From Balanoglossus misakiensis (taxonomy: Eukaryota; Animalia; Hemichordata): 64,000 bases of DNA. The notes beneath the pieces were generated by a model. That model saw only the letters and a list, made by a program, of their open reading frames with translations, ran no database searches and was not told where the DNA came from. Where the stretch lies: contig CM082587.2 in the NCBI GenBank assembly GCA_040954595.2, forward strand, positions 10,545,403 through 10,609,402, read 5' to 3'. This document shows positions 1-57,685 of this stretch, in pieces. The first letter of the stretch is position 1, and the number at the start of each line of letters is the position of its first letter. The position numbers were made by a program, and so were the translations under genes.

Positions 1-3000
1 TGTTGACGCAAAGGTTGACCCCACCAAACACTCAAAATTGATGGGCACGACACTGGCCACTAGCTCTGCATGGCCTGGTTAATCAATGTTGACGCAAAGG
101 TTGACCCCACCAAACACTCAAAATTGATGGGCACGACACTGGCCACTAGCTCTGCATGGCCTGGTTAATCAATGTTGACGCAAAGGTTGACCCCACCAAA
201 CACTCGAAATTGATGGGCACGACACTGGCCACTAGCTCTGCATGGCCTGGTTAATCAATGTTGACGCAAAGGTTGACCCCCACCAAACACTCGAAATTGA
301 TGGGCACGACACTGGCCACTAGCTCTGCATGGCCTGGTTAATCAATGTTGACGCAAAGGTTGACCCCACCAAACACTCAAAATTGATGGGCACGACACTG
401 GCCACTAGCTCTGCATGGCCTGGTTAATCAATGTTGACGCAAAGGTTGACCCCACCAAACACTCAATATTGATGGGCACGACACTGGCCACTAGCTCTGC
501 ATGGCCTGGTTAATCAATGTTGACGCAAAGGTTGACCACATCAAACACTCAAAATTGATGGGCACGACACTGGCCACTAGCTCTGCATGGCCTGGTTAAT
601 CAATGTTGACGCAAAGGTTGACCCCACCAAACACTCAAAATTAATGGGCACGACACTGGCCACTAGCTCTGCATGGCCTGGTTAATCAATGTTGACGCAA
701 AGGTTGACCCCACCAAACACTCAAAATTAATAGGCACGACACTGGCCACTAGCTCTGCATGGCCTGGTTAATCAATGTTGACGCAAAGGTTGACCCCACC
801 AAACACTCAAAATTAATGGGCACGACACTGGCCACTAGCTCTGCATGGCCTGGTTAATCAATGTTGACGCAAAGGTTGACCACACCAAACACTCAAAATT
901 GATGGGCACGACACTGGCCACTAGCTCTGCATGGCCTGGTTAATCAATGTTGACGCAAAGGTTGACCCCACCAAACACTCAAAATTAATGGGCACGACAC
1001 TGGCCACTAGCTCTGCATGGCCTGGTTAATCAATGTTGACGCAAAGGTTGACCCCACCAAACACTCAAAATTAATAGGCACGACACTGGCCACTAGCTCT
1101 GCATGGCCTGGTTAATCAATGTTGACGCAAAGGTTGACCCCACCAAACACTCAAAATTAATGGGCACGACACTGGCCACTAGCTCTGCATGGCCTGGTTA
1201 ATCAATGTTGACGCAAAGGTTGACCCCACCAAACACTCAAAATTAATGGGCACGACACTGGCCACTAGCTCTGCATGGCCTGGTTAATCAATGTTGACGC
1301 AAGGGTTGACCCCACCAAACACTCAAAATTGATGGGCACGACACTGGCCACTAGCTCTGGCCTGGCTAATTAATGTTGACGCAAGGGTTGACCCCACCAA
1401 ACACTCAAAATTGATGGGCACGACACTGGCCACTAGCTCTGGCCTGGCTAATCAATGTTGACGCAAGGGTTGACCCCACCAAACACTCAAAATTGATGGG
1501 CACAACACTGGCCACTAGCTCTGGCCTGGCTAAACAATGTTGACGCAAGGGTTGACCCCACCAAACACTCAAAATTGATGGGCACGACACTGGCCACTAG
1601 CTCTGGCCTGGCTAATCAATGTTGACGCAAAGGTTGACCCCACCAAACACTCAAAATTACGGGCACGACACTGGCCACTTAAGCTCTGCATGGCCTGGTT
1701 AATGAATGTTGACGCAAAAGTTGACCCCACCAAACACTCAAAATTAATAGGCACGACACTGGCCACTAGCTCTGCATGGCCTGGTTAATCAATGTTGACG
1801 CAAAGGTTGACCCCACCAAACACTCAAAATTAATGGGCACAACACTGGCCACTAGCTCTGCATGGCCTGGTTAATCAATGTTGACGCAAAGGTTGACCCC
1901 ACCAAACACTCAAAATTAATGGGCACGACACTGGCCACTAGCTCTGCATGGCCTGGTTAATCAATGTTGACGCAAAGGTTGACCCCACCAAACACTCAAA
2001 ATTAATGGGCACGACACTGGCCACTAGCTCTGCATGGCCTGGTTAATCAATGTTGACGCAAAGGTTGACCCCACCAAACACTCAAAATTAATGGGCACGA
2101 CACTGGCCACTAGCTCTGCATGGCCTGGTTAATCAATGTTGACGCGAAGGTTGACCCCACCAAACACTCAAAATTGATGGGCTCGACACTGGCCACTAGC
2201 TCTGGCCTGGCTTATCAATGTTGACGCAAGGGTTGACCCCACCAAACACTCAAAATTGATGGGCACGACACTGGCCACTAGCTCTGGCCTGGCTAATCAA
2301 TGTTGACGCAAGGGTTGACCCCACCAAACACTCAAAATTGATGGGCACGACACTGGCCACTAGCTCTGGCCTGGCTAATCAATGTTGACGCAAGGGTTGA
2401 CCCCACCAAACTCTCAAAATTGATGGGCACGACACTGGCCACTAGCTCTGGCCTGGCTAATCAATGTTGACGCAAGGGTTGACCCCACCAAACACTCAAA
2501 ATTGATGGGCAAGACACTGGCCACTAGCTCTGGCCTGGCTAATCAATGTTGACGCAAAGGTTGACCCCACCAAACACTCAAAATTGATGGGCACGACACT
2601 GGCCACTAGCTCTGGCCTGGCTAATCAATGTTGACGCAAAGGTTGACCCAACCAAACACTCAAAATTGATGGGCACGACACTGGCCACTAGCTCTGGCCT
2701 GGCTAATCAATGTTGACGCAAAGGTTGACCCCACCAAACACTCAAAATTGATGGGCACGACACTGGCCACTAGCTCTGGCCTGGCTAATCAATGTTGACG
2801 CAAAGGTTGACCCCACCAAACACTCAAAATTAATAGGCACGACACTGGCCACTAGCTCTGCATGGCCTGGTTAATCAATGTTGACGCAAAGGTTGACCCC
2901 ACCAAACACTCAAAATTGATGGGCACGACACTGGCCACTAGCTCTGGCCTGGTTAATCAATGTTGACGCAAAGGTTGACCCCACCAAACACTCAAAATTG

Positions 3001-4015
3001 ATGGGCTCGACACTGGCCACTAGCTCTGGCCTGGCTTATCAATGTTGACGCAAGGGTTGACCCCACCAAACACTCAAAATTGATGGGCACGACACTGGCC
3101 ACTAGCTCTGGCCTGGCTAATCAATGTTGACGCAAGGGTTGACCCCACCAAACACTCAAAATTGATGGGCACGACACTGGCCACTAGCTCTGGCCTGGCT
3201 AATCAATGTTGACGCAAGGGTTGACCCCACCAAACACTCAAAATTGATGGGCACGACACTGGCCACTAGCTCTGGCCTGGCTAATCAATGTTGACGCAAG
3301 GGTTGACCCCACCAAACACTCAAAATTGATGGGCAAGACACTGGCCACTAGCTCTGGCCTGGCTAATCAATGTTGACGCAAAGGTTGACCCCACCAAACA
3401 CTCAAAATTGATGGGCACGACACTGGCCACTAGCTCTGGCCTGGCTAATCAATGTTGACGCAAAGGTTGACCCAACCAAACACTCAAAATTGATGGGCAC
3501 GACACTGGCCACTAGCTCTGGCCTGGCTAATCAATGTTGACGCAAAGGTTGACCCCACCAAACACTCAAAATTGATGGGCACGACACTGGCCACTAGCTC
3601 TGGCCTGGCTAATCAATGTTGACGCAAAGGTTGACCCCACCAAACACTCAAAATTAATAGGCACGACACTGGCCACTAGCTCTGCATGGCCTGGTTAATC
3701 AATGTTGACGCAAAGGTTGACCCCACCAAACACTCAAAATTGATGGGCACGACACTGGCCACTAGCTCTGGCCTGGCTAATCAATGTTGACGCAAGGGTT
3801 GACCCCACCAAACACTCAAAATTGATGGGCACGACACTGGCCACTAGCTCTGGCCTGGCTAATCAATGTTGACGCAAGGGTTGACCCCACCAAACACTCA
3901 AAATTGATGGGCACGACACCCAGGCCACTAGCTCTGGCCTGGCTAATCAATGTTGACACAAAGGTTGACCCCACCAAACACTCAAAATTGATGGGCACGA
4001 CACTGGCCACTAGCT
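1..4015. repeat. Tandem satellite, 86-bp (A) and 82-bp (B) monomers, ~48 copies, runs off window start
   Basis: Unit TGTTGACGCAAAGGTTGACCCCACCAAACACTCAAAATTGATGGGCACGACACTGGCCACTAGCTCT(GCAT)GGCCTGG(T/C)TAATCAA repeated head-to-tail; B lacks the 4-bp GCAT. Confidence 0.98.
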
Positions 4016-14841: not shown

Positions 14842-15812
14842 CACATTCTTCTCCAACAAGAACACTACCATTGGAACAGAATATTGTACTTTCAACTTGT
14901 AATGTCTCAGCGTCGACTGAATATTCAGCTGTATCAAAAGTACCATTCTTGACTGCATCTTCAATAACTACAGCTGCAGCATCAGCAGAGCTAATGGATA
15001 AAACAACAGGCAAAAAATTCTTACATATGCCACATTACAATACCAACCAGAAGTGTGTACTGTAAACTGGGTTGTTTTCACGACAGGAAATTTTCGCGAT
15101 ATTAAAAGAGGCAACTGTTACGTGAGGACGAATTTTTGAGTTCTCGTATTTCACTAACTGCATCATTATCTCCAAAAACATTTTACACAACTTTTTATTT
15201 TAACGTTTTTTTGACCAGCGCATGTTTTGCAGAAATTTACTGCTCGCGAAAATAACATGTTTTGCAGTATATTTCGAATGCATGAATCTTTAGAATACAG
15301 GATGCCGCAACATGAAGGAAGGTGGGCAGAAATGATGGGGTTGCCAAAAACTGAAAATGTTTGAGTGTTAAGACACAAAATAATTTGTTTTCACTTGCAT
15401 GAATGGAATATTTTGCAATAATGCAAACACCAGCTGTATAGGGAATACAGAGCTGGTCCTCACACAGCCTGGGATCAGTACCCTAGACATGTCACCAAAG
15501 TCATTTCAATAGAACAGAAGGGGAATAAAATACTCGAAAAATAACAATTACTACTCACGCATTGGTTGTGAAACTGAACTGAACCACAAGCTGAGTATCA
15601 GCCTGTCTCTTTCTTCGGTTTGAGGCGCCGCAGGTTATTTGAAGGTCATCAAAGTTGCATTCACCGCCACAAATACCAAACAAATCATTCAGATAGTTGA
15701 TAGTGTTCATAAAACTGATCCTCAATTGCTGGATGACACCATTGTTACATGTACCAGCCTGTGAATTGTATGACACGCCACAATTCACTCCACGTTGAGT
15801 CTTCCCAGGAGC
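14842..15812 (-). CDS. SEA-like region exons (~15559-15812, ~14842-14990) with RRKR basic site
   Basis: ..CGGECNFDDLQITCGASNRRKRQADTQLVVQFSF..; ..AVVIEDAVKNGTFD..STIFCSNGSVLVGEEC. Confidence 0.7.
15058..15269. mobile_element. MITE family with TA|CTGTAAAA...TTTTACAG|TA ends (Tc1/mariner-pogo-like); other copies 19525-19718, 23696-23890, 26678-26886, ~42752-42920, 43511-43709, 45758-45966, ~58990-59093, ~62850-62997
   Basis: Shared ~200-bp core (GGAAATTTTCGCGATATCAAAAGAGGCAACTGTTACG) and terminal inverted repeats with TA flanks. Confidence 0.85.
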
Positions 15813-16190: not shown

Positions 16191-18818
16191 CTGAACATCC
16201 AGGGAAGGTGAATTCCTCGTCTGGATTCTCAGGATTAATAGAATCCCACACCCCCAATGGTCTGAGATGAAATGTCTCACACGAGTTGGAGAATTTCTGT
16301 CTCACACGAGCCGAAGGCGAGTGTGAGACAGAAATTCTCCAACGAGTGTGAGACATTTCATCTCAGACCATTGGTGTGTGGGATTCTTTTTCTCACGTTC
16401 CTCCGATAATTGCAGAAATTTGTCTTTTTATGAACATTATTATACAATAATCAAAACCCATCAGCATCAACCACCTTCGATCAGTATCATTCCGCCCAGA
16501 AAATGTAGTTCCTACCATACACATCCATACGTTTTTATACACCAAGACATTTGTGACTGTAACATTGCAAAGATTTATTTACACAGATTTCTCATATAAA
16601 TCTGCATCATAGTGAGTTACAATTCAAAACAGCAACCACATAAACAACAAATTGTTTTTAAAAATCAGAACAAGTAGATGTGTACCCGTTTGACAAGGTG
16701 CAATTGTCTTTCAAACACATTTGAATAAACGAAGTTTGACTTTCAATTCAAAGTTTATCAAATAAAACAAGCCATTTTATAAAATTTGTCATTAAAATTC
16801 TAGTAGTGATGAATGTTATGTTCACATGTTTTGATACACCTGGTCAAAACATTTAAATATTTTCCTGACTGCTTTCAGAATCTGAATATATCACCCTTGG
16901 TCGTTTTTTGGAAGGTGGCCCAGTATCACTTTGGAAGTGCACTTGCACATTAAAATTACCACCTGAGACATGACAATTTTGGAAGATTGCAGATGACCCC
17001 AGAACATGGGATGCTTCCAATTTCTGTGTGTGCTTTGTTTCCTGATATTGCTGTGTCATATAGTTATTAGATGAGCCAGCAACAGCAGTAGGAAAGTAGT
17101 TTTGTGTCACATCTGTTTTCGTTGTCTCACTCAAAATGTGCGACATAGCATACTGTTGGTTATCTGAGAGTTTGCAATAGTTATTTATGGACTGGACATT
17201 TTTATGTGCACTCTTTTGCATTGTATGTGTTGGTGGGACCATGTTATCATTCAACTTTTGCAACAAGTACTTTCTAGCACTGGTATTAGTGAGTTTCTTG
17301 CCTAGTTCAGTTAGGCCACTCTCTGTTGACATGTTTTTCATGATGTTTGCAATAGTATTTGGACCCATGGGATAGCGTTTGAACCATGTCTTTTCAGATG
17401 GTTTTGGGTTGGCATCCTTGATGCCCAAATAGAAAGGGGTTTCTGGATCATTGAAATCAGTGGGTCGCAGAGATTTGTATAATTTATACAATGTTACTGG
17501 ACATCGCTCTGTGTTTGACGGAAACGCGTACATCTGCGGTTTGACGGGACGTACATCGTTGACATTTTCACCAGTTCTTGTTTTTGTTTAGTGTTCCCGA
17601 GACATTTCCAGGTATTCTCGCCCATGGTCATCACGTTTCAGCTGAATATCACCCCAGCAGAGGGACCGGTGTTCTTTTATGGCTCGCATGCCAAAATGCA
17701 GCATATTATTAAACCATAGAGTGTTAATAATGGACCGTGGGCTATGGCTTCCAAGCTGTCTCGTCGCATACAAATGATTGACGTTGTCATCACTCAGGGT
17801 TTCTGCCTTGTTAGGGAGGTTGCCTTTACCTTGTTTCCGCAAGTCTTTCTGTTTGGCCTTCAGTTGCTCCCGCGCCGAGAAAAATTCAGGGCCGTTGGTT
17901 AGAGATACACCATATTTCTTCCAGCGCAGATGTCGCTCAACACTACTGAACAAACCTCGCAAGTAGGATGGCTCATATTCAGATCCATCTTCCTTACGTA
18001 CGACGCAAAGAAACTTCCCAACTAACGGGTCCAGTTCGATAGGTGGTATATCACAAACGTCTCTGTGTTCACCATTTTCGACCAGAAACTGCTTCAACAG
18101 AGCGATGTGACTGTTTGTTTTTCGGACGGTCTCTTGATTTTGTTGTTCGGCAACAAACTTCTCCAGGTCGACGTTGGATAACGTAACGAAACGGCTCTGG
18201 CGGTCATTATTCGCGTCACTGTTGACGGCTGCAGCTGGTTCGGTCATGACGATGTCGAAATCTTTCGTTATCTGAATTGACGATAGTGTCAGTTCTTCAC
18301 CGGAAATATTATCGACGAGCGTAAACAGCCGATATGTTCCTAAAGGTCTAAATTCGCCCGTTACAACAAATATGCGGTTATTCTTCAAGTATTTGTCGCC
18401 GACGCTAACCATACTCGGAACCCGGAAATCCAAAAACCTTATCACTTTGCGATACAGTCGTCTGCCTGTTGTAGTTCCGGTTGTATATTACGCGACATTC
18501 TATTCGTCAAATATTACACATATGTATTAGAAGCGTGTCCAAATTGACCAATCAGCGCTCGCCCTATTAAAAGATTCTTTGTTCGCGCAATAATACAGAG
18601 TGTGAGAACAATTTGTTCTCACACTCTGTTCTCACACTCCCAGCGTGCGTAGAACGTGAGAATAAAATATCCTTCACTATGGCAGAGATAGTAAGGTGCT
18701 GGCAGGCTTGCAAACTTGTATCCTGGTAAACAATCCACCTGACAGAACACACCCGACTCAAACTCATTACAGATGGAAATACCTTTAACTGGTGGTGCTG
18801 GCTTTTCACAATCAAATG
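16191..18818 (-). CDS. Sushi/CCP exon split by the Crypton insertion (18666-18818 + 16191-16238)
   Basis: DCEKPAPPVKGISICNEFESGVFCQVDCLPGYKFASLPAPYYLCHSEGYF|NPENPDEEFTFPGCS rejoins in frame when the element is removed. Confidence 0.85.
16236..18665 (-). mobile_element. Crypton-type tyrosine-recombinase DNA transposon (DUF3504/KIAA1958-like)
   Basis: YR ORF; ~148-bp terminal hairpin 16240-16387; short shared core (TAA) at both junctions; no TIR/TSD of DDE type. Confidence 0.88.
16853..18445 (-). CDS. Crypton tyrosine recombinase, one in-frame nonsense codon (TAA at 17588-17590, probably from CAA)
   Basis: Two ORFs in the same frame; motifs VRKEDGSEYEP, FGMR, H*TKTRTG, RCPV, TNTSARK, SAHKN, SINNY match the YR R-K-HxxR-H-Y layout. 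Confidence 0.88.
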
Positions 18819-19447: not shown

Positions 19448-19813
19448 CCTTGTATGTTCTGAATGATGTTGTTATAATTTTTGATAGTTACATAGGGACA
19501 AAAGTGATAATGATGCAATCATATTACTGTAAAACGGCAAATTTTCCCAAACTTCGGCAAAAAAGAAGAAGTAAATAAAGTCGCATAAAATGTTTTTCAG
19601 AGATACCAGAGTAGTTAGTAAAATACTAGAATGCGGAAATTTAATTCTCGTGTCACAGTTGCCTCTTTTGATATATTGCAAAATATTTTCTGTCACGAAA
19701 ATGTCCCGTTTTACAGTATGTGACAAGACATAACAAGGGGTAGAGATGACAATTTGTCAAGATATTAATTAATTTGTAAAGTTTATGTATGAATGATAAA
19801 AAAATTCACTCAC

Positions 19814-46109: not shown

Positions 46110-49100
46110 CTTCAAGCGTACTCTCGATTGTTGTAACTATTCCAAAGTCTGGAAGTGTAGTAACTTCAAGCTCATCATCCTCACAATGTCGAAATTGCTT
46201 GGAGGTGTCAATAATCTCACCAAACTGAAACTCTCTAACCCTGTAGTTAATTTTACCAGACACCGAATAGACCTTGACATTGAGAGGGGCTTGTATATCA
46301 CCAGAACCAATGGGTGGTTCAAATAAGTTATCACTGAGTCTGTCTAGAGTAATCCAGGGACCAGTTGTGTGGACTTCCACAGTGGTGACACGGTAACGAT
46401 GATCCAATATTAACCCTAACGCTGTCGAGTCCGTAGCAGACCGCCCGATTTCCGGTGTGGGTAGAAGTCGAACGTTGGCGAGTGATGAATGACCTAATCG
46501 GTATGAATCGATATGATTCACCGACTCGCTGGAGTCTCTAGGCGTTTGCGTGCGCTTCGCTATAACGGGTTGTCTTTGAACTACCGTTTTGAGGGCAAAA
46601 TCTGTTAGGACAGGAAAGTCTCGACAGGGTTATTTGCCTTGAACTACAAAGAGCACACTATCCTTAGAGGCAAATTCCGCCGGTCATTCCGACCCTGGGG
46701 AGACCGTTTTTTATGTGTCCGCAAAAACGTAATTGACAGCGATGCATAGTTTTCCATAGCAGACGATTCCACAACGACATAGGGTATCAACCTTTTCGAT
46801 GGCCAGACGTGTCGGACGCACTCGTGGGTGCCTGTTTAGGAGAGTGCGTTTTGGGATCGACTCGGGAAAACATGACGATTTTTGCCGATGGTGCGAACCG
46901 ATGACCGACGTCTTGGCGTGCGTGCGTCGCAGGCCATATCTTTCGCGACCGACTCGTAGCCTACAATTACTCGTGAAAGAAAACTTGGTACGGACAGGCT
47001 TTGACGGGACTTGGCTTGCGTAGCCAGCGGCACAAGTGTGTAAAAACGACTGGGTGTGCATTTTGACGTAACGGCCGACGATGTAGACCGACTCGTCGTT
47101 TACACCCCGGTTCGCGACACATTGGATCGGACAGGTTTTGACGGGACTTGGCTTTGCGTAGCCAGCGGCACGAGTGTGTAAAAAGCGACTGGGTGTGCAT
47201 TTTGACGTAACGGCCGACGATGTAGACCGACTCGTCGTTTACACCCCGGTTCGCGACACATTGGATCGGACAGGTTTTGACGGGACCTCGGCTTTGCGTA
47301 GCCAGCGGCACAAGTGTGTAAAAAGCGACTGGGTGTGCATTTTGACGTAACGGCCGACGATGTAGACCAACTCGTCGTTTACACCCCGGTTCGCGACACA
47401 TTGGATCGGACAGGTTTTGACGGGACTTGGCTTTGCGTAGCCAGCGGCACGAGTGTGTAAAAAGCGACTGGGTGTGCATTTTGACGTAAACAAAGCCGAC
47501 GAATACGCTCTCGGTCCGGTGGGTTTTGCGTTACTCACCATTAGAGAACGACACAGTGTGCGGATGCCTGTAACTCAGGCTGGTGAATTGGACGGGTGTG
47601 TGCCGTAACGGTTCCTCGGTGCTGCGTGTTACCGAGGGGTATGTACAGACACGGGCGAAAGGCGTGCCTTGCATTCGCGTAACATAGGGGACATGAGTTC
47701 TGCTTAGGCCGCACAGATGCGAAATTTTAACGTCATGGTCGATCAATACTTTCTGTATTGTTACGCAAATTGCCGTTCCAGATTTCCATTTCTGGCGGGA
47801 ATTTTGAGGAGCCCCATAGGTCCGATTGCCTGCGGACATATTTTTGTGTCACGTGTTTGCGTACCTATATATTAGGCGTCCAATTAGATGGGAGAACGCC
47901 TGTCACAGGTTCATGTGCGACTGCTTATAAAAGGGGTGTTTCGTGGACAGTTTTGTCAGTACCACTACAGACCATGAGTTTGACGGACCGAAAGAGTTTT
48001 TTGAAGGCAACCCGAAAGATTCGGAACCCGGAATCCAGTGGAACGGGCAGCGATCGCTATGATGTAGACTCCCCTGTTAGGAAGGGAAAGGCCAAGAAAA
48101 AGAAGGCAAAGAAACGCCTTTTGAGCGTCAGATTTGAGGAGACGGAAAAGCCTGGCGGGAAACGTAAGCGCAAGTCCAGTCGACCCGTTGTCGACTCGGC
48201 CGATGAGACAGAAGCTCCACCCCGGAGTGATGAGGTGACTGCGGAAGCGGGCGAACCAGCCAGTACCCCGACAGAAGCTCCACCCAGGAGTGACGAGGTG
48301 ACTTCAGAGGCTGACTTACAATCCAGTAAGCAGCAGAAGTCTGGCGGGAAATGTAAGCGCAAGTCCGATCGACCCGTTGTCGACTCGGACGGTGAGACAG
48401 AAGCTCCACCCAGGAGTGATGAGGTGACTGCGAAGGCGGGCGAACCAGCCAGTACCCCGACAGAAGTTCCACGCGGGAGCGATCAGACGACCCCAGAGGC
48501 GGGCGAACCAGCCAGTTCCCCGCCAGTGACCCCATGTACGACAGATGATAGTCACGAGACCTCCCCAGAAGTGCCATCTGCTGCTCAGATGAGCCCTCAT
48601 CAGGCAGTCGCCTCGACTTCCACTGGGAAGGTGGGATCATCCAAGAAAGCAGTAAAAAAAAGGTGCGCTACAGTCCACCTGAGTTTGAGCCCGAAAAGAT
48701 TTTGGACGCCAAAACAGGCTTGTTCCGATATAGACGGCCTGATGATGACCTTGAGGAGGATGAGGGAAACGTGACGGACATTGATGAGGATGCGGCAGAG
48801 GACGATAACTTTTACGAGCTGTCATTTCCTGGTACTCCATCTGAGGAGTCCGACTCCGAGAATGAAGCCGTAATAGAAGAGGCCATACGGCAGGCCTCCA
48901 AGGATGGGGACGAGTGGCGTCTTTCGCAGCATGAGGACACTGAGATATTTTCCGAACCCCTGTTCGAGAAAGAGCGTGGACCCACGTTTACTATGGCAAC
49001 ACATGCACGGGAGTTGGAATACTTCCTGAAATTTGTATCACCGGACATGATATCTCTGGCGGTGAAGGAAACGAACAAATATGCGTCGTATCACCAGCAT

Positions 49101-52100
49101 TACATCGCAAAGAAAATCGACTCTGAGTGGCGAGCGACCAATTACAGAGAGATGCAAGCCTTCCTGGGCGTTGTCATCATCATGGGCATTGACCGCAAGC
49201 CTGCTGTGGGCGACCATTGGTCCAGCGACATTTTCCTGCATAATGTTGGCATTTCGTCAGTCATGACCCGTCAACGCTACCACAGGTTGATGCGGTATTT
49301 CCACTTGGCTGACCCCCAGAAGGATCCAAGACGAGACCCTGACCCGAACAGACGGTCACGCCGTTGTCAGGACGACCCAATGTATAAAGTAAACCCATGG
49401 ATGGAGCCCCTTGTAAACAGTTGCGTACACAGCTATCAGATGGGACAGGAAATCTCCATCGATGAAGGCATGGTGAAGTTCAAAGGACGTTCGAAATTCA
49501 AACAGAGGCTTCCCCACAAGCCAGACAGAGACGGCTTTAAGGTATTAGTCCATGGGCCAGACAGGAATTTGGTATCAGAAAGATGGACAAAGCCTCACAT
49601 GGTTTTTTGGAAAGGCCTATATCTCTAGATTATAAATTGGGGTGATAGCCCTGCCTATCGAGTAGCTTTCTGCATTTTTCCCTCAAAAACTAATGTAAGA
49701 ACATAAAAATTTCCGACCCAAATTTTGGGGGTAGGGGAACTTTAAATTGCTGTAACTCCAGCAAAACTAAAGCCAGAACAGTCATTTACCACTCAAATTG
49801 TGTGTTTTTTAGAACTCTACCAATATAATATATTTTGGTGGTAATTCGTTTTGAATTGAGGTCAATAGAGGTCAAAAGGTCATGAAATTTGGGTCATTCT
49901 GAAAATTTGTAGTATGACTATTTCTTGAACGATTTTTTTTAACTTAAGTCTTTAAATGTCATTTACAAGATAAAATACTTTCCCAGAATCTATTTCAAAC
50001 CAATAGGAAACCTTATTATTCATTTATGACCAGAAAAACACAAATAAAGAGAAACGACAGAAAGACATCCAATTTTCCACTCAGATTTAAGGGTAGGGGA
50101 AACTTAAGTTCTTGTAACTCCGGCAAAAATAAACCCAGAACAGTCATCTACCACTCAAATTGTGTTTTTTTTAGAACTCTACCAATATAATATATTTTGG
50201 TGGTAATTCGTTTTGAATTAAGGTCAATAGAGGTCAAAAGGTCATGAAATTTGGGTCATTCTGAACATTTGTAGTATGACTATTTCTTGAACGATTTTTT
50301 TGAACTTATAAGTCTTTAAATGTCATTTAGAAGATAAAATACTCTCCCAGAATCTATTTCAAACCAATAAAAAACCCTATTATTCAATTACGATCAGAAA
50401 AACACAAATACAGAGATACGGAAGAATGGCACAAGACTTCAGACCCTGATATTGGGGTAGGGGAAACTTAAGTAGTTGTAACTCCGGCAAAAATAAAGCC
50501 AGAAAAGTCATCTACCTCTCAAATTGTGTGTTTTTAGCACTCTAGCGATTGTATATGTATTTGTTGCAATTTTGTTTTGAATTTAGGTCAAAGAGGTCAA
50601 AAGATCACAAGATTTGGGTAATTTCGAAAAATTATGGTACGAACATTTCCCGCATTAATTTTTTAAACCCAAGTCTTCAAATGTCATTTATGAGATAAAA
50701 TACTCTACACGATTTTTTTTCAGACCAATTGAAGACCTTATTATTCAATTACAATCAGAAAAAAAATTAGTAGAGAAACGGGATAATAACAAACAATTTC
50801 CCACGGATTTTGGGGTAGGTTTGGCCATCTAACAGGTAAGTATACACCCAACTGATCATGCACATATGGTATTTAGGAGAACGGATGTGCAAATTTGTGA
50901 ACCTTTGCATGCTGCTCATGTGCACTATACTTGTATGATGATTCCTAACAATACTACGAGAAGGGGCCATTATAGCATTGTAGCTCTGATTGTGTATTAT
51001 TGTTGGATACCATCCTACAGTGTACAGGCACAGCAGATGACAAGCCAAGCAAAGGTTCAAAAATCTGCTTATTTTTTTTCCTCAACACAATATGAGCATG
51101 ATCTATTTATATTCAGGTCCAGTATAATAAATAAAAAAATGGCCTCGTCACTCTACAAGATCACGCCTCCTGGATAACTTTGCTGAATACAGCTAACATA
51201 CAAAAATACAAACCAATTCAGGACCTCGCCATTGGTTTGGGCGAAGGTGAAATTCCTCAGGTGCAGTACCATCGGAAATGCCGAAGTCTCTTTACGATGA
51301 AAAAGGCTCTTGAATCTATCCTTTCTAAAGAGCAGTCGTCATCAACTGAGGGAACCAATACACTGGAACGTAAAAAAGAGGTCGAGCATACAAGGGTCTC
51401 GGTGTGATCACATTTGCCTATTTTGCTCCACCACCAAGTACATGAAGGGAAGTAGGACAAGAGCTCCTTTAGTTCGTTGTCAGCAATTGCGTACGGACAA
51501 CACATTTAGGGAGGCAGCAACAAGAAAAATGACAGTAAAATTTGTGCACTTCTCAGTCGTGAGTTGGTTGCTGCTGAGGGTCACTATCATAGAAAGTGTT
51601 ATAGGGACTATACAAGGCCTGATATTCAAGCAGGTTCAAGTCATATGGAGGTTGATGAAAGTCAACATGATCAAGATACTAGTTATGAGGATGTCCTGCA
51701 AATTGCTCAAGAAGAGTTATTTTCTTTTATCAGAAATGATTTGTTCACAAACCCTGAGGTAGTTCCCCTGACTGATCTATCAAACAAGTTAGTTACCAAA
51801 ATGCTCCAACTTGGTGTTAAACAGGTTAACAATTCCACCAACAAAACTTGCAGCATACGCTAAATACGGAATTCAAAGGGACATTGATTTTTTTGAATGA
51901 TGTAAATGGTAGGGTGCTTGTATATCCGTCATCACTAGATATAGGTACTGTTGACCTGAAGTACAATGCTGTAAGAAAAGAACTTCTTGCAGCAGAAAAA
52001 CAATCACATGAAAGTATCATCACCACATCTGCTCTAATCCTGCTTACGCTGCTTGAATATCAGGCCTTGTATAGTCCATATAACACTTACTAAGATAGTG

Positions 52101-55100
52101 ACCCTCAGCAGCAACCAACTCAAAACTGAGAAGTGCACGAATTTTACTGTCATTTTTCTTGGTGCTGCCTCCCTAAATGTGTTGTCCGTACGCAATTGCT
52201 GACAACGAACTAAAGGAGCTCTTGTCCTACTTCCCTTCATGTACTTGGTGGTGGAGCAAAATAAGCAAATGTGATCACACCGACACCCTTGTATGCTCGA
52301 CCTCTTTTTTACGTTCCAGTGTATTGGTTCCCTCAGTTGATGACGACTGCTCTTTAGAAAGGATAGATTCAAGAGCCTTTTTCATCGTAAAGAGACTTCG
52401 GCATTTCCGATGGTACTGCACCTGAGGAATTTCACCTTCGCCCAAACCAATGGCGAGGTCCTGAATTGGTTTGTATTTTTGTATGTTAGCTGTATTCAGC
52501 AAAGCTATCCAGGAGGTGTGATCTTGTAGAGTAACGAGGCTTGCTTTATGGTCGGATTCATGACAGTCGAGAAAACAATCCCGTCAGCCCTCTTGTGTGG
52601 AATAGAAGATGGGCTTGCCATTTTTTATTTATTATACTGGACCTGAATATAAATAAATCATGCTCATATTGTGTTGAGGAAAAAAAATAAGCAGATTTTT
52701 GAACCTTTGCTTGGCTTGTCATCTGCTGTGCCTGTACACTGTAGAATGGTATCCAACAATAATACACAATCAGAGCTACAATGCTATAATGGCCCCTTCT
52801 CGTAGTATTGTTAGGAATCATCATACAAGTACAGTGCACATGAGCAGCATGCAAAGGTTCACAAATCTGCACATCCGTTCTCCTAAACACCATATGTGCA
52901 TGATCAGTTGGGTGTATACTTACCTGTTAGATGGCCAAACCTACCCCAAAATCCGTGGGAAATTGTTTGTTATTATCCCGTTTCTCTACTAATTTTTTCT
53001 GATTGTAATTGAATAACAAGATCTTCAATTGGTTCGGGAAAAAAATGGTGTAGAGTATTTTATCTCATAAATGACATTTGAAGACTTGGGTTTAAAAAAT
53101 TAATGCGGGAAATGTTCGTACCATAATTTTTCGAAATTACCCAAATCTTGTGATCTTTTGACCTCTTTGACCTAAATTCAGAACAAAATTGCAACAAATA
53201 CATATACAATCGCTAGAGTGCTAAAAAACACACAATTTGAGAGGTAGATGACTTTTCTGGCTTTATTTTTGCCGGAGTTACAACTACTTAAGTTTCCCCT
53301 ACCCCAATATCAGGGTCTGAAGTCTTGTGCCATTCTTCCGTATCTCTGTATTTGTGTTTTTCTGATCGTAATTGAATAATAGGGTTTTTTATTGGTTTGA
53401 AATAGATTCTGGGAGAGTATTGTATCTTCTAAATGACATTTAAAGACTTATAAGTTCAAAAAAATCGTTCAAGAAATAGTCATTCTACAAATGTTCAGAA
53501 TGACCCAAATTTCATGACCTTTTGACCTCTATTGGCCTTAATTCAAAACGAATTACCACCAAAAATATATTATATTGGTAGAGTTCTAAAAAACACACAA
53601 TTTGAGTGGTAGATGACTGTTCTGGGTTTATTTTTGCCGGAGTTACAAGAACTTAAGTTTCCCCTACCCTTAAATCTGAGTGGAAAATTGGATGCCTTTC
53701 TGTCGTTTCTCCTTATTTGTGTTTTTCTGGTCATAAATGAATAATAAGATTTTCTATTGGTTTGAAATACATTCTGGGAGAGTATTTTATCTTCTGAATG
53801 ACATTTAAAGACTTAAGTTCAAAACTATCGTTCAAGAAATAGTCATACTACAAATTTTCAGAATGACCCAAATTTCATGACCTTTTGACCTCTATTGACC
53901 TCAATTCAAAACGAATTACCACCAAAATATATTATATTGGTAGAGTTCTAAAAGACACACAATTTGAGTGGTAAATGACTGTTCTGGCTTTAGTTTTGCT
54001 GGAGATACAGCAATTTAAAGTTCCCCTACCCCCAAAATTTGGGTCGGAAATTTTTATGTTCTTACATTAGTTTTTGAGGGAAAAAATGCAGAAAGCTACT
54101 CGATAGGCAGGGCTATCACCCCAATTTATAATCTAGAGATATAGGCCTTTCCAAAAAACCACATGAGGCTTTGTCCATCTTTCTGATACCAATTCATGAA
54201 AAATCGGGTCCTGGCCCATGGACTATATGGCAGTTGGCGGACTCTGTCACATCCTATGTGGCAAACTTTGCTCCCTACCTGGGGGTGAAGTACCTTGACA
54301 GGAATGACGGGAAAAAACAGGAGAGGGGAGTGGTGAAAAGAATAACGATTGAACTTGTTCAGCCGTTCTGCGGGTACAACCACATCCTCTTCTGTGACAG
54401 CCTCTTCACAACTGTGTTAACTGCGAGAGAACTGATGGAGATGGGCATGTATATGGTTGGAAGCTTCAACCGACGTAACCGTCGGAGTATGCCGCCCATG
54501 CTTATTCCCCCCGGGAAAAAGAAGAAGCTTCCACTGAAGGTCGGTGAAATGAAGGCAGCCACCCGAGTCGATTGCCGAATCAACCTGGCAGCTTATCAGG
54601 ATAGCAATGCACAGGTGTTGATCCTGAACAACGTTTATCCACCAATTGACACGGAGACAGTTGGCAGTGGTGAGGAAGAGAGAAATGTGCCCCTGAGTTT
54701 GTCGAAGTACCGCGTCTTCATGGGAGGCGTTGACCGCGCTAACCAGAAGCGAAAATACTACCACTGTGGGCGAAAGAACAACCGCTGGTGGGTATACATG
54801 GCCTGGTACCTGATGGATGTAGCATTGACGAATGCTTACGTATGTTTCAAAGACCTTAACCCCCAGACCAAGGTGAAGCACAAGTTCTTCAACCTACGTG
54901 TTGGGAAGCAACTCATTGGCGGATTCACCAGTCGTGGTCAAGGCAACGTACGGGAAATAGAGCGCACAGTTACTGACAGCTCTTTCATTTTCCCTGGAAA
55001 CATACCCCAACACGTCGAAAGTAGATTACCTGGACGGCAGAAAACCTGCAAGCTATGCAGTAGGGAAGGCAAGAGGACCCTTTCTGGACGGCGTTCGGAG

Positions 55101-57685
55101 ACTGTCATGGGATGTGCGCTCTGCCAAGTGCATTTGCATCAAGGCGAATGCTTCGCCTCGTTCCACCACCATATGATGCTACGAGGAAAGAAGAGCATCG
55201 GGACACAGTTTCCAGAAGGAGATGTGCGAGTTCGGCAGCCGAGACGGGACAAACCGCTCCGGCGAAGTTCCAGAAACACGGACCATTCCTAAATTATTCC
55301 CCTCCCGAGAGGGTGACACGGGCTTCCGGTGAACCAGCCCTGGCATTTGTGCGGACTTTAGTCATTTTTTTCTGTGGACCCCCACTAAATTATGCCCTTG
55401 AGTAGGGCTACGAGGTGACCGAGCCTCATTTACGGACAATGAAACACGGACTGTGAGAAACGGACAGGTTACTTGCGGACACTGAAACACGGATTGTGAC
55501 ATGGGCTCGTCTTGAACGAGCCCCGTTTGCGCGGACTTTAGTCATTTTTTTCTGTGGACCCCCACTAAATTATGCCCTTGAGTAGGGCTACGAGGTGACC
55601 GAGCCTCATTTACGGACAATGAAACACGGACTGTGAGAAACGGACAGGTTACTTGCGGACACTGAAACACGGATTGTGACATGGGCTTGTCTTGAACGAG
55701 CCCCGTTGCGCGGACTTTAGTCATTTTTTTCTGTGGACCCCCACTAAATTATGCCCTTGAGTAGGGCTACGAGGTGACTGAGCCTCATTTACGGACAATG
55801 AAACACAGACTGTGAGAAACGGACAGGTTACTTGCAAACACTGAAACACGGATTGTATGATGTTACTGTAACGGTGCACGAATCACTCTTTTTTAGGAAA
55901 TAAAGTGCTATTTATGAGGCAACCTGTGGTGGTGTTAATCCCTCTAATATGACGCACAGTAACGGGGGTCTTGTGTAAATAGTCGTCCGGTTCAACACTC
56001 GCCCCTGGCCGAAATGGTGCAATGGGGCCTGCAGAACTTGCGGGTTACCTGTGACCGTGTCGGTACAACCCTGTACCGTAAAAAACTATAGCGTATTAAC
56101 ACCGTAATGAACGTCTGTCTACTGTGCGTAACTAACCAACGTGTCGTTATCACAACGTCCGTGTGTGTCTTGTGTGCGAGAATGAGTCGTTGTCAGGCGG
56201 CTGTAGAGCGGAACACTGTGCGCCAGTGTCCAGTCGTTCGCATTACGTGTCGAACTAACTCGTACCCTACAGGAAAGTGGCAGGGGAAGGGGTGCCCGAA
56301 CACCCCTGGCGGTACACCCTGGGTACCCTACTAATAACTGATGGTGTCGTTGTTGTGACGTGATGTGGCGTGTACTAACACACTAACTTTATTTTCGTAA
56401 AAGTAAGCCTCGAAACGACGTTTACAGACGCTCCCCTCCCAGGGGAACGAACCCGATGACCCCACAACTTTTACCCGGTTAATTGTTGTTTGAGGTCCCG
56501 CCGACACGGGACTGTGCCAAACTTGAAGTCTAGCACGTTCAAAAGCAGCTAAAATGACCCTCCAAAAACCCAATTTTCAGGCAAAAAGCCTGGTAATCCA
56601 GCGGGTGTAGAGGCGGTCTCGTAACGAGTCGGCGGCCCAACGGGTTTTGACCCCCGGTAGCAAGAGGGTTAATAAGCTGAATGATGCAGAAATGCTCTCT
56701 GCAAACTAAATAAACAAATCAATCAATCAATATGTGATACACTCACAAAATGAATGACACATACCAGGTTCACACAGAGAAAAATGTGAGACACTATTTG
56801 CCTATGATAAACTCAGAGCATTGTGTCCACACACACAAAGTTTGTGTATATGCGTTGAGGCTCGGCCCCATAGACAATCATGAGTTAAAAATACTGTTAA
56901 GAAGATGGCTTGTGAGGTTTCAAACAATTTTGCAGTGATGAGACAACTACAAGTGAATATTTACTTTTAAGTAGCAATTTAAGACAAGGGTATCTAAATT
57001 AGTTAATACTTGTGTTGTTTCACAAACCTTGAACTTGATAGAGACATCCTCAGGACAGGCAACAACTGAGTAGGATACAAGAAGAGATGAAGGACTTTCA
57101 CCATCTGACAAGATGTTGTAAGCATCCCCACTTAGAACCAGACCATCTTCATCAATCATGCAGTATGGGTACATGCACATGTCTGTTACCCGGACAACTA
57201 CAGATGCATCATTTGAACCAATCACGTTCAGGCATTGCCCACAAACCTGCAATCACACATGAAGGTATCAAAATGCATGTATACTATTTCAACAAACCAA
57301 CTAACTCCTTCTTTAGACAACACTGCAGGTTTTGGTTTAAGTGCTTAATCAAATTAAGCTGAGGAAATTTCAAAGAAAAACAGTGCAACACACAAACTTA
57401 GACAAACACGATGAAATAAAATTATTCATAACAAAAGTTGTTACAAATCACAATGACTCAAAATGAGAGACTATCTGGTCAGTATTGACATCACAGCCAA
57501 TCATGTACAAGGACTTTCAGAACTAACGTTATCTATACTTACATGTGAATCTTGAAAATTGGCCATACCAGCAACCATACTTGTGTAAAATGTTCCAAAT
57601 GAACAGGTACCATCAGTTGGTGTCTCACGGTACTTCTCACAAGTTGCGTTTACAAAAGTCTCAAAGGTATCACAATCTTTACTGA
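46110..57685 (-). CDS. Expansin-like module copy B (57543-57685, 57028-57246, 56669-56705 + 46110-46413), third exon split by the piggyBac
   Basis: Near-identical to copies A and C; removing 46414-56672 restores GATCCAATATTAATAAGCTG as in the paralogs. Confidence 0.85.
46992..47490. repeat. ~139-bp tandem repeat x~3.6 in the piggyBac left subterminal region
   Basis: GGACAGG..ACGGGACTTGGC.. recurs at 46992, 47129, 47268, 47408. Confidence 0.92.
49546..54225. mobile_element. Academ-like foldback element, ~2.1-kb inverted arms, 3-bp TSD (TAT)
   Basis: TAT|TAGTCCATGGGCCAG...CTGGCCCATGGACTA|TAT; arms 49546-51633 / 52049-54225; remnant peptides YHRKCRSLFT and LVAAEGHYHRKCYRDYTR. Superfamily call from TAG ends, 3-bp TSD and motif recall. 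Confidence 0.75.
49720..50820. repeat. ~363-bp subterminal tandem repeat x3 in the left arm (mirrored ~52940-54040)
   Basis: GGGTAGGGGAA(A)CTT..GTAACTCC recurs at ~49729, 50091, 50455. Confidence 0.85.
55346..55857. repeat. ~180-bp tandem repeat x~2.8 in the piggyBac right subterminal region
   Basis: GCGGACTTTAGTCATTTTTTTCTGTGGACCCCC at 55351, 55531, 55710. Confidence 0.92.

What the first reader, a model, noticed from the sequence alone, without database searches (positions are those of the whole stretch)
16236..18665. Crypton ends look built for folded single-strand (attC/CTXphi-like) recombination
Seen: the YR element ends in a ~148-bp palindrome (16240-16387) whose main defects are not random. 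CGAG faces CGAG twice (16282/16343 and 16307/16318), and the apex is GCC-GAA-GGC. Immediately inside, GGATTC-TTTTT-CTCACGTTC is an inverted copy of the two element ends joined together (GAACGTGAG-AATAATA-GAATCC), ~2 nt shorter at the TAA crossover core. CTCACAC motifs recur at both ends (also 18598-18640). Established: tandem sheared G.A pairs in CGAG/CGAG and C(GAA)G loops are unusually stable in ssDNA, whereas the complementary CTCG/TTC strand is not. Integron IntI (attC) and XerCD-CTXphi recombine folded single strands, and DIRS elements use an internal complementary region. Inference: one strand of the excised circle folds into a long stem spanning the end-junction with a small bulge, creating a strand-specific recombinase site, i.e. 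a possible eukaryotic ssDNA-hairpin tyrosine-recombinase system.
Basis: partly seen in the sequence, partly recalled or inferred. Interest (0 to 1): 0.88.

Follow-up and report, generated by a model that had tools for sequence, protein, structure and literature searches.

The report
Crypton transposon with integron-like folded end
A young 2.4-kb jumping gene in an animal exon, and about a dozen related families, end in a DNA hairpin completed by joining the element's two ends, so its enzyme likely cuts and pastes one folded DNA strand as bacterial integrons do, a testable route for a transposon class whose way of moving is unproven.

Summary
Observation confirmed. 16236-18665 is a CryptonA-type (DUF3504) transposon inside a host exon; run contigs hold the empty site, fixing both ends, and read the one stop codon as a sense codon. 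Relatives were fetched by protein alone. In 30 of their 3' hairpins, 50 of 75 two-by-two mismatches are tandem G.A (about 1% expected), 44 on the antisense strand, and 13 of 14 triloops are GNA. The sequence inside the hairpin is complementary to the element's own 5' end in 17 of 25 loci, 2 nt shorter than the end junction in 16 of 19. The element's spacer stays at the 3' end (29 of 30) and is rare at the 5' end (2 of 32). That places the crossover on the antisense strand, the same strand that carries G.A/GNA. Best reading (0.65, inferred): an attC-like folded single-strand site with one strand exchange. No circle or biochemistry was seen; strand-biased bacterial SE elements leave a similar footprint; the enzyme folds closer to Cre than to IntI. 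Not found in seven literature searches (Repbase and Dfam not searchable). This scan noted the same design before on other genomes.

The parts
16236..18665 (-). CryptonA-type (DUF3504) tyrosine-recombinase DNA transposon; TAA shared by both ends (16236-16238, 18663-18665)
   Evidence: empty-site joint 16235->18663 in X1, X3, X4; Pfam
16853..18247 (-). Tyrosine recombinase gene, 464 aa, R188 K222 T322 R325 H348 Y357; one stop codon at 17588-17590 in the window, read as a sense codon in contigs of runs X1 and X2
   Evidence: Cre-like fold Z 21
16240..16387 (+). Terminal hairpin, about 67 bp of stem; + is the strand with G.A pairs and the GNA loop (antisense to the gene)
16282..16346 (+). Outer CGAG/CGAG block (16282-16285 facing 16343-16346)
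   Evidence: chemistry PMC10085684 passages
16307..16321 (+). Inner CGAG/CGAG block and C-GAA-G triloop apex (16311-16317); related contigs read GCA in the loop
   Evidence: chemistry PMC13037366 passages
16236..16242 (+). 7-nt element spacer; inferred cut on the + strand immediately before 16236
   Evidence: register; cut side inferred from general tyrosine-recombinase geometry
16243..16249 (+). Inferred recombinase box 1, pairs with 16378-16384
   Evidence: role inferred
16385..16389 (+). 5-nt inner spacer facing the 7-nt spacer in the folded junction (2-nt asymmetry)
16390..16400 (+). Inner complement of the far end (pairs with 18652-18662)
18652..18662 (+). Far-end box (inferred box 2), completes the stem only after the ends are joined
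18595..18637 (.). Perfect 17-bp inverted repeat of the same CTCAC box plus one further box, beside a CCAAT motif at 18548-18552; no G.A blocks, likely duplex binding sites
   Evidence: role inferred
16574..16579 (-). Only AATAAA/ATTAAA on the gene's strand within the element, about 180 nt before the hairpin region
18663..18818 (-). First part of the interrupted host exon (after an AG acceptor)
   Evidence: empty allele reads open across the site; neighbouring exons hit HYR and Ephrin_rec_like
16191..16235 (-). Second part of the interrupted host exon (before a GT donor)

Best explanation
This is a young CryptonA-type transposon whose 3' hairpin, completed by its own 5' end, likely folds on the antisense strand into an attC-like recombination site, so that it likely moves as a single-stranded circle by one strand exchange. 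SHOWN: element limits and empty site; Cre-like enzyme with catalytic residues; hairpin; family-wide G.A/GNA design with antisense polarity; 5' end complementary to the inner base with a 7-versus-5 spacer; element spacer kept at the 3' end, target spacer at the 5' end, about one shared base; target preference A-N6-T-N-T on the gene's strand. INFERRED: (1) the antisense strand folds when exposed (replication or cruciform), G.A blocks and the GNA loop favouring it over its complement; (2) one exchange between the two ends releases that strand as a circle in which box-spacer-box is a folded duplex with two unpaired bases; (3) the enzyme cuts this strand at the 5' edge of the spacer and joins it to a duplex target with one base of homology; (4) the unmatched spacers block the second exchange and replication resolves the junction. 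In effect an integron cassette carrying its own integrase, reached by convergence.
For:: empty site; related contigs vary the loop to GCA and show complementary loose ends on the two sides of the inner stem (unphased); 27 of 42 loci with enough tail (of 82 fetched by protein) have a downstream hairpin scoring 50 or more, 0 of 42 in shuffles; two of the 27 (L040, L083) are other kinds of stem; 30 hairpins of 13 families; 50 of 75 2x2 loops tandem G.A (1.3% expected), all 50 in pyrimidine-GA-purine context; 44 antisense, 6 sense; 9 families to 1; 13 of 14 triloops C-GNA-G with a variable middle base; 17 of 25 loci (11 of 13 families) with 5' end complementary to the inner base at 2 or fewer of 200 shuffles; 2-nt asymmetry in 16 of 19; spacer at 29 of 30 3' ends against 2 of 32 5' ends; within-family identity falls from 0.72-1.00 at -10..-1 to 0.35 at +2 at 3' ends, and is mostly 0.2-0.4 before the cut at 5' ends. 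A at -7 in 28 of 32 targets. L071 holds the predicted junction as a head-to-tail joint. PMC2727003 passages: attC has an unpaired central spacer, unpaired bases and bottom-strand choice.
Against: No circle joint in any contig (contigs drop rare forms). No biochemistry. SE elements give a one-sided 6-bp spacer by strand-biased recombination with no folded site mentioned in the passages read (PMC9345347), so the footprint alone does not prove folding. Single mismatches show no wobble polarity (on the gene's strand G.T 14, A.C 9). Three copies have G.A blocks on the sense strand (L042, L063, L010); L063 shares its insertion with unflipped L025, so that flip came after insertion or in assembly. 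16 of 30 hairpins have no triloop; L060 has no G.A block; 15 of 42 loci had no strong hairpin; 8 of 25 missed the end-complement threshold. A minor joint 16242->18672 (depth 7, one contig) keeps the element spacer at an emptied site, as a cut at the other edge would. The enzyme is closer to Cre (Z 21.3, rmsd 3.8, 303 aligned) than to IntI (Z 16.4, rmsd 4.0, 271 aligned). Families share ancestry, many loci come from a few sample series, and end anchors were set by hand.
Confidence: 0.65

Rival explanations
1. Strand-biased recombination on duplex ends (as in bacterial SE elements) makes the one-sided footprint, while the folded antisense hairpin serves another step: priming second-strand synthesis on the released strand, protecting it, or bringing the ends together.
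For: SEs circularise one strand and place their 6-bp spacer on one side (PMC9345347 passages). GNA mini-hairpins, including CCGAAGG, occur in single-strand priming signals (PMC13037366 passages). The enzyme is Cre-like. The joined ends form an ordinary inverted box-7-box site in duplex form too.
Against: Does not explain why the inner complement tracks each family's 5' end with a fixed 2-nt shorter spacer exactly across the crossover (16 of 19). SEs share four coding sequences; this element has one gene.
Confidence: 0.22
2. Standard model (Goodwin; Tn916-like): a duplex circle, both strands exchanged, the palindrome being an array of duplex binding sites.
For: The model in print (PMC3212892, PMC13465315 passages). 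CTCAC boxes recur at both ends. The depth-7 joint would fit a cut at the far spacer edge.
Against: Two-strand exchange without spacer homology predicts the element spacer at either end and changing with each hop (Tn916 behaviour recalled); seen 29 of 30 versus 2 of 32. Duplex binding gives no reason for G.A opposite G.A or for GNA loops.
Confidence: 0.08
3. The hairpin acts as RNA (terminator or small-RNA precursor) or is an unselected palindrome left by template switching.
For: Tandem G.A also forms in RNA (recalled). Weak miRNA-precursor matches in Rfam.
Against: All Rfam matches are far below their cut-offs (best 35 vs 74 bits). The G.A strand is antisense and the hairpin lies beyond the only polyadenylation-like signal. 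A GA-capped mini-hairpin is far less stable as RNA than as DNA. Copies with corrected, perfect arms (L050, L052, L060) show that mutation erases the blocks. Does not explain the end complement or the footprint.
Confidence: 0.05

Closest known systems
CryptonA DNA transposons, DUF3504 group (Kojima and Jurka 2011, PMC3212892, passages; Glomhoppers, PMC13465315, abstract, Background and passages)
   Same: Single DUF3504 recombinase gene, no terminal inverted repeats, no target duplication, short microhomology, animal host, non-autonomous derivatives.
   Different: PMC3212892 reports no terminal repeats in animal Cryptons; 'hairpin' and 'palindrom' occur 0 times in either main text. The model there is a circle recombining on 4-6-bp direct repeats.
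Integron gene cassettes, attC x attI by IntI (PMC2727003, passages)
   Same: Folded single-strand site against a duplex site, strand choice, asymmetric unpaired central spacer between two boxes, unpaired bases. Recalled, not from a call: site downstream of the gene, completed by the cassette's own 5' end, with about one base of homology.
   Different: Eukaryotic; carries its own recombinase; no fixed attI, only a loose target; polarity marked by tandem G.A and GNA; enzyme closer to Cre than to IntI.
CTXphi integration by XerCD (one passage; details recalled)
   Same: Folded single strand, one exchange, replication resolves.
   Different: Host enzymes and a fixed dif site there; own enzyme and many targets here.
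SE strand-biased circularising elements (PMC9345347, passages)
   Same: Tyrosine recombinase, one strand circularised, spacer placed on one side after integration.
   Different: Bacterial, four shared coding sequences, site-selective; no folded end described in the passages read.
Starships (PMC10104507, passages)
   Same: Eukaryotic tyrosine-recombinase transposons; target with a short core plus one conserved A a spacer away (TTAC-N7-A); mechanism stated as unclear.
   Different: DUF3435 captain, large cargo, fungi; their ends were not examined here.
Eulor5/6 and salmon Crypton-N elements (PMC5753468, passages)
   Same: Non-autonomous animal Cryptons with conserved termini.
   Different: No sequences available here; whether they share this design is untested.

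Membership tests
CryptonA (DUF3504) | DUF3504 tyrosine recombinase as sole gene | tested here: met
   PF12012 E 8e-27; no other long ORF inside the element
CryptonA (DUF3504) | Catalytic R-K-H-R-H-Y | tested here: met
   R188, K222, R325, H348, Y357 in 55-58 of 58; first H is T here as in 23 of 58
CryptonA (DUF3504) | No terminal inverted repeats, no target duplication, short shared core | tested here: met
   3-nt shared core here; 0-1 nt right of the cut in 14 of 19 relatives
CryptonA (DUF3504) | Mobile: present/absent at a site | tested here: met
   empty site in runs of two studies
CryptonA (DUF3504) | Placement among Repbase CryptonA versus CryptonV/H/I by phylogeny | not testable with these tools
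   no Repbase or Dfam sequences; label rests on DUF3504 and KIAA1958/ZMYM-named hits
Integron attC cassette | Two box pairs with asymmetric unpaired spacer in a folded strand | tested here: met
   7 vs 5 nt here; 2-nt difference in 16 of 19
Integron attC cassette | One-strand exchange footprint | tested here: met
   29 of 30 vs 2 of 32; footprint only, shared with SE elements
Integron attC cassette | GTTRRRY / RYYYAAC core boxes (consensus recalled) | tested here: not met
   box at the crossover begins TTTAT in most relatives; no such core at this element's junction
Integron attC cassette | IntI-family enzyme with its extra helix, attI platform | tested here: inconclusive
   fold closer to Cre than to IntI; the insertion itself was not examined; no attI-like platform seen
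Integron attC cassette | Enzyme binds and cuts only the folded bottom strand | not testable with these tools
   needs biochemistry
DIRS retrotransposon | Reverse transcriptase/RNase H gene | tested here: not met
   2.4-kb element with one gene
Helitron / HUH rolling-circle element | HUH Rep/helicase gene | tested here: not met
   none; enzyme has a Cre-like fold
Known RNA family | Rfam match at curated cut-off | tested here: not met

The most novel reading that the evidence does not exclude
DUF3504 Cryptons are self-mobile eukaryotic counterparts of integron cassettes: a single-strand, folded-site tyrosine-recombinase system in animals, evolved on a Cre-like enzyme, in which tandem G.A blocks and GNA loops choose the strand and one base of homology suffices for insertion.
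Probability: 0.6. Interest if true: 0.9.

Novelty: new variant of a known kind. Interest (0 to 1): 0.8.

Why it matters
How Cryptons move has not been shown; even the circle is described as hypothesised but not demonstrated (PMC10104507 passage). The anatomy here gives a specific mechanism with named strand, cut position, substrate and target, and an apparently intact, recently inserted element with its empty site to test it on. If right, folded-strand recombination is not confined to bacteria, it arose again on a Cre-like enzyme, non-canonical G.A pairs have a selected role in animal genomes, and there is a compact one-gene system for inserting single-stranded DNA without double-strand breaks. 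It would also bear on what the domesticated DUF3504 proteins (ZMYM2-4, QRICH1, KCTD1, KIAA1958) inherited.

Tried and rejected
No whole genome is held for the window, so no genome-wide copy survey. Viral contigs: no relative by protein; the one DNA-pattern hit, L001, has no stem and is chance. No RNA holder listed. No circle joint listed in contigs, which cannot show absence. The energy model cannot test strand polarity. Wobble polarity of single mismatches: null. Control hairpins elsewhere in the loci were few (8) and three looked like ends of other Cryptons, so they are no clean control. TAG read as Gln changed nothing because the stop is TAA. My first register for L012 was off by 2 and was corrected (29 of 31, 29 of 30 after dropping L025 as a repeat of L063; L031 and L042 also share a flank by eye, which gives 28 of 29). 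Dropped before the loop counts: L057, L062 (repeats), L040, L076, L083 (other or no stem), L004 (weak); the parse of L018 failed but stayed in. Look-up of earlier findings by protein and by footprint words gave nothing. No tree was built, so family counts are not corrected for ancestry.

Full report
1. Observation. The palindrome is as described: arms 16240-16312 and 16316-16387, -77.6 kcal/mol as DNA, z -17.5, 0 of 200 shuffles as stable. From the apex out to 16254 the only mismatches are GA opposite GA in two CGAG/CGAG blocks, and the apex is C-GAA-G. The stretch 16390-16400 is complementary to 18652-18662; with the ends joined by coordinates the stem gains 11 bp and leaves T16236 and T16239 unpaired. 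The folding program scores both strands alike, as it has no term for sheared pairs. The chemistry comes from papers: CGAG facing CGAG forms tandem sheared G.A pairs (PMC10085684, passages) and GNA-capped DNA mini-hairpins are unusually stable (PMC13037366, passages).

2. The element. The minus strand encodes a 464-aa DUF3504 protein with one stop at 17588-17590. Contigs of runs X1 and X2 read G at 17590, a sense codon, so the window copy is a variant or an error. R188, K222, R325, H348 and Y357 are kept in 55-58 of 58 aligned proteins; the first catalytic H is T here, as in 23 of 58. The nearest proteins are from the hemichordate Ptychodera flava, 69% and 65% identical. The model (pLDDT 81.7) matches Cre best (Z 21.3, rmsd 3.8, 303 aligned) and IntI less (Z 16.4, rmsd 4.0, 271 aligned). 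A contig joint 16235->18663 in X1 and in X3/X4 gives the empty site. In X1 its depth is 2752 against about 310 along the element, with flanks near 3050; depth is no allele frequency, but it fits one full-length copy carried by a minority of molecules. The empty allele reads open between an AG acceptor and a GT donor, so the insertion breaks a coding exon of a gene with HYR and ephrin-receptor-like exons: young and probably harmful.

3. Relatives chosen without using the hairpin. A protein alignment retrieved 80 metagenome loci (the best 80 of 260) and 2 genome-collection loci, in 34 clusters besides this element. Of the 42 with at least 550 nt after the estimated stop, 27 have a downstream hairpin scoring 50 or more; shuffles gave 0 of 42 and the coding region 1 of 42. 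Two of the 27 are other kinds of stem. For loop counts I used 30 hairpins of 13 families, dropping 6 of 36 (two repeats, three other or no stem, one weak). Of 75 two-by-two loops, 44 are G.A/G.A on the antisense strand, 6 on the sense strand, 25 other; 1.3% would be expected. All 50 have pyrimidine-GA-purine context. Of 14 triloops 13 are C-GNA-G, 11 antisense, with a variable middle base; 16 hairpins have no triloop. By family the polarity is 9 to 1 (p=0.02), 3 without such loops. The sense-strand cases are L010 and locally inverted apices in L042 and L063; L063 shares its insertion with unflipped L025. Single mismatches show no polarity (14 vs 9). In this organism's own runs related contigs read GCA in the loop, and loose ends on the two sides of the inner stem are complementary to each other though unlike the window (unphased).

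4. The end complement. In 17 of 25 testable loci (11 of 13 families; 9 more lacked upstream DNA) the sequence at the inner base of the hairpin matches the element's own 5' end at 2 or fewer of 200 shuffles; 13 of the 17 also beat every other family's upstream region. This element scored 3 of 200. In L071 a full element is followed head-to-tail by a short derivative, and the joint is the predicted junction.

5. The footprint. Read on the gene's strand, each family keeps its spacer at the 3' end: within-family identity is 0.72-1.00 at -10..-1 and 0.35 at +2; at 5' ends it is 0.20-0.43 before the cut except at -7, and high after it. The spacer motif is at 29 of 30 3' ends (14 of 14 families) and 2 of 32 5' ends. 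Targets prefer A at -7 (28 of 32) and T at +1 and +3 (26 of 31 each). So there is one crossover at one edge of a 7-nt spacer, with about one shared base. Tyrosine recombinases cut each strand at the 5' edge of the spacer (established geometry, recalled; spacer length 6-8 bp in PMC3212892), so the exchanged strand is the antisense one, the strand that section 3 picks by chemistry. This agreement of two separate signals is the main reason for my confidence. Anchors were set by hand from family alignments, so the register carries about +-1 nt; L071 checks it. Against: one contig at depth 7 keeps the element spacer at an emptied site.

6. Mechanism. Most likely (0.65) the antisense strand folds, is released as a circle by one exchange, presents box-spacer-box as a folded site with two unpaired bases, and is joined to a duplex target by one exchange that replication resolves. 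All of these steps are inferred. The main rival (0.22) is strand-biased recombination on duplex ends, as shown for SE elements, which also place their spacer on one side (PMC9345347, passages), the hairpin then serving priming or protection; CCGAAGG occurs in a plasmid priming signal. That rival does not explain the covarying inner complement with its fixed 2-nt asymmetry. The two-strand duplex-circle model (0.08) fails on the footprint and on G.A polarity; an RNA or neutral origin (0.05) fails on strand, position and Rfam.

7. Known systems and novelty. It is a CryptonA-type element by protein and ends; it works like an attC cassette (PMC2727003, passages) but is not one: no attC core boxes, and the enzyme is not closest to IntI. 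In the two papers on this group that I searched for these words, 'hairpin' and 'palindrom' do not occur in the main text (PMC3212892; PMC13465315), and the first reports no terminal repeats in animal Cryptons; PMC5753468 (passages) notes only conserved termini. Seven searches (listings and abstract starts only) showed no paper proposing folded-strand recombination for Cryptons; the only listed paper with 'crypton', 'integron' and 'attC' together was the SE paper (20 of 117 listed). Repbase Reports, Dfam, subscription papers and supplements were not seen. Earlier notes of this scan describe the same design on other genomes; they are unchecked AI notes and I used them as leads only, one of them pointing to insertion footprints, which I then tested on my own loci.

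8. Verdict. Real, conserved and strand-specific; new variant of a known kind; interest 0.8.

Noticed in passing
window 16191-16235 and 18663-18818: The element interrupts a 201-nt coding exon of a host gene with HYR and ephrin-receptor-like exons; the filled allele has about a tenth of the flank depth in run X1.
   Followed up: yes
window 16242/18672: Minor joint at depth 7 in one contig keeps the element spacer at an emptied site; imprecise excision at the other spacer edge, or an error.
   Followed up: partly
L042:1089-1224, L063:5388-5546, L010:2093-2262: G.A blocks (and in L042, L063 the GNA loop) on the sense strand, in L042 and L063 by local inversion of the apex; L063 and L025 are one insertion in flipped and unflipped form.
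   Followed up: partly
L071:2375-2724: Short non-autonomous derivative sits head-to-tail behind the full element; the joint is the predicted circle junction.
   Followed up: yes
L069:2743-2846 and 3467-3574; L056:5676-5780; L007:49-154; L014:3691-3804: Further G.A/GNA hairpins of other short elements stacked beside or overlapping Crypton ends, suggesting that ends are preferred targets.
   Followed up: no
window 18595-18637; L003, L007, L016, L017, L018, L030, L064 upstream of the gene: Short inverted repeats without G.A blocks beside a CCAAT motif upstream of the recombinase gene; possible autoregulatory duplex sites.
   Followed up: no
window 16262-16353 and 18597-18648: Tens of contigs of related families share the apex, the left terminus and the far-end boxes but have different outer stems; one loose end in X5 begins with four letters matching the far end just before the spacer.
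   Followed up: partly
window 15058-15213 and 19525-19719: High-copy repeats with mutually inverted ends (TACTGTAAA type) flank the region; probably two MITE-like insertions.
   Followed up: no
window 1-4015; 46985-47489; 55313-55856: Tandem arrays, the first with a unit of about 82-86 nt and strong strand skew.
   Followed up: no
window 49546-51143 and 52617-54225: 1.6-kb inverted duplication at 97% identity with internal repeats.
   Followed up: no
L082, L083: DUF3504 Cryptons on contigs of bacterial genome bins; likely host-animal DNA in the bins, not checked.
   Followed up: no
target consensus of L-loci: A short core plus one conserved A a spacer away resembles in form the Starship target TTAC-N7-A.
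   Followed up: no
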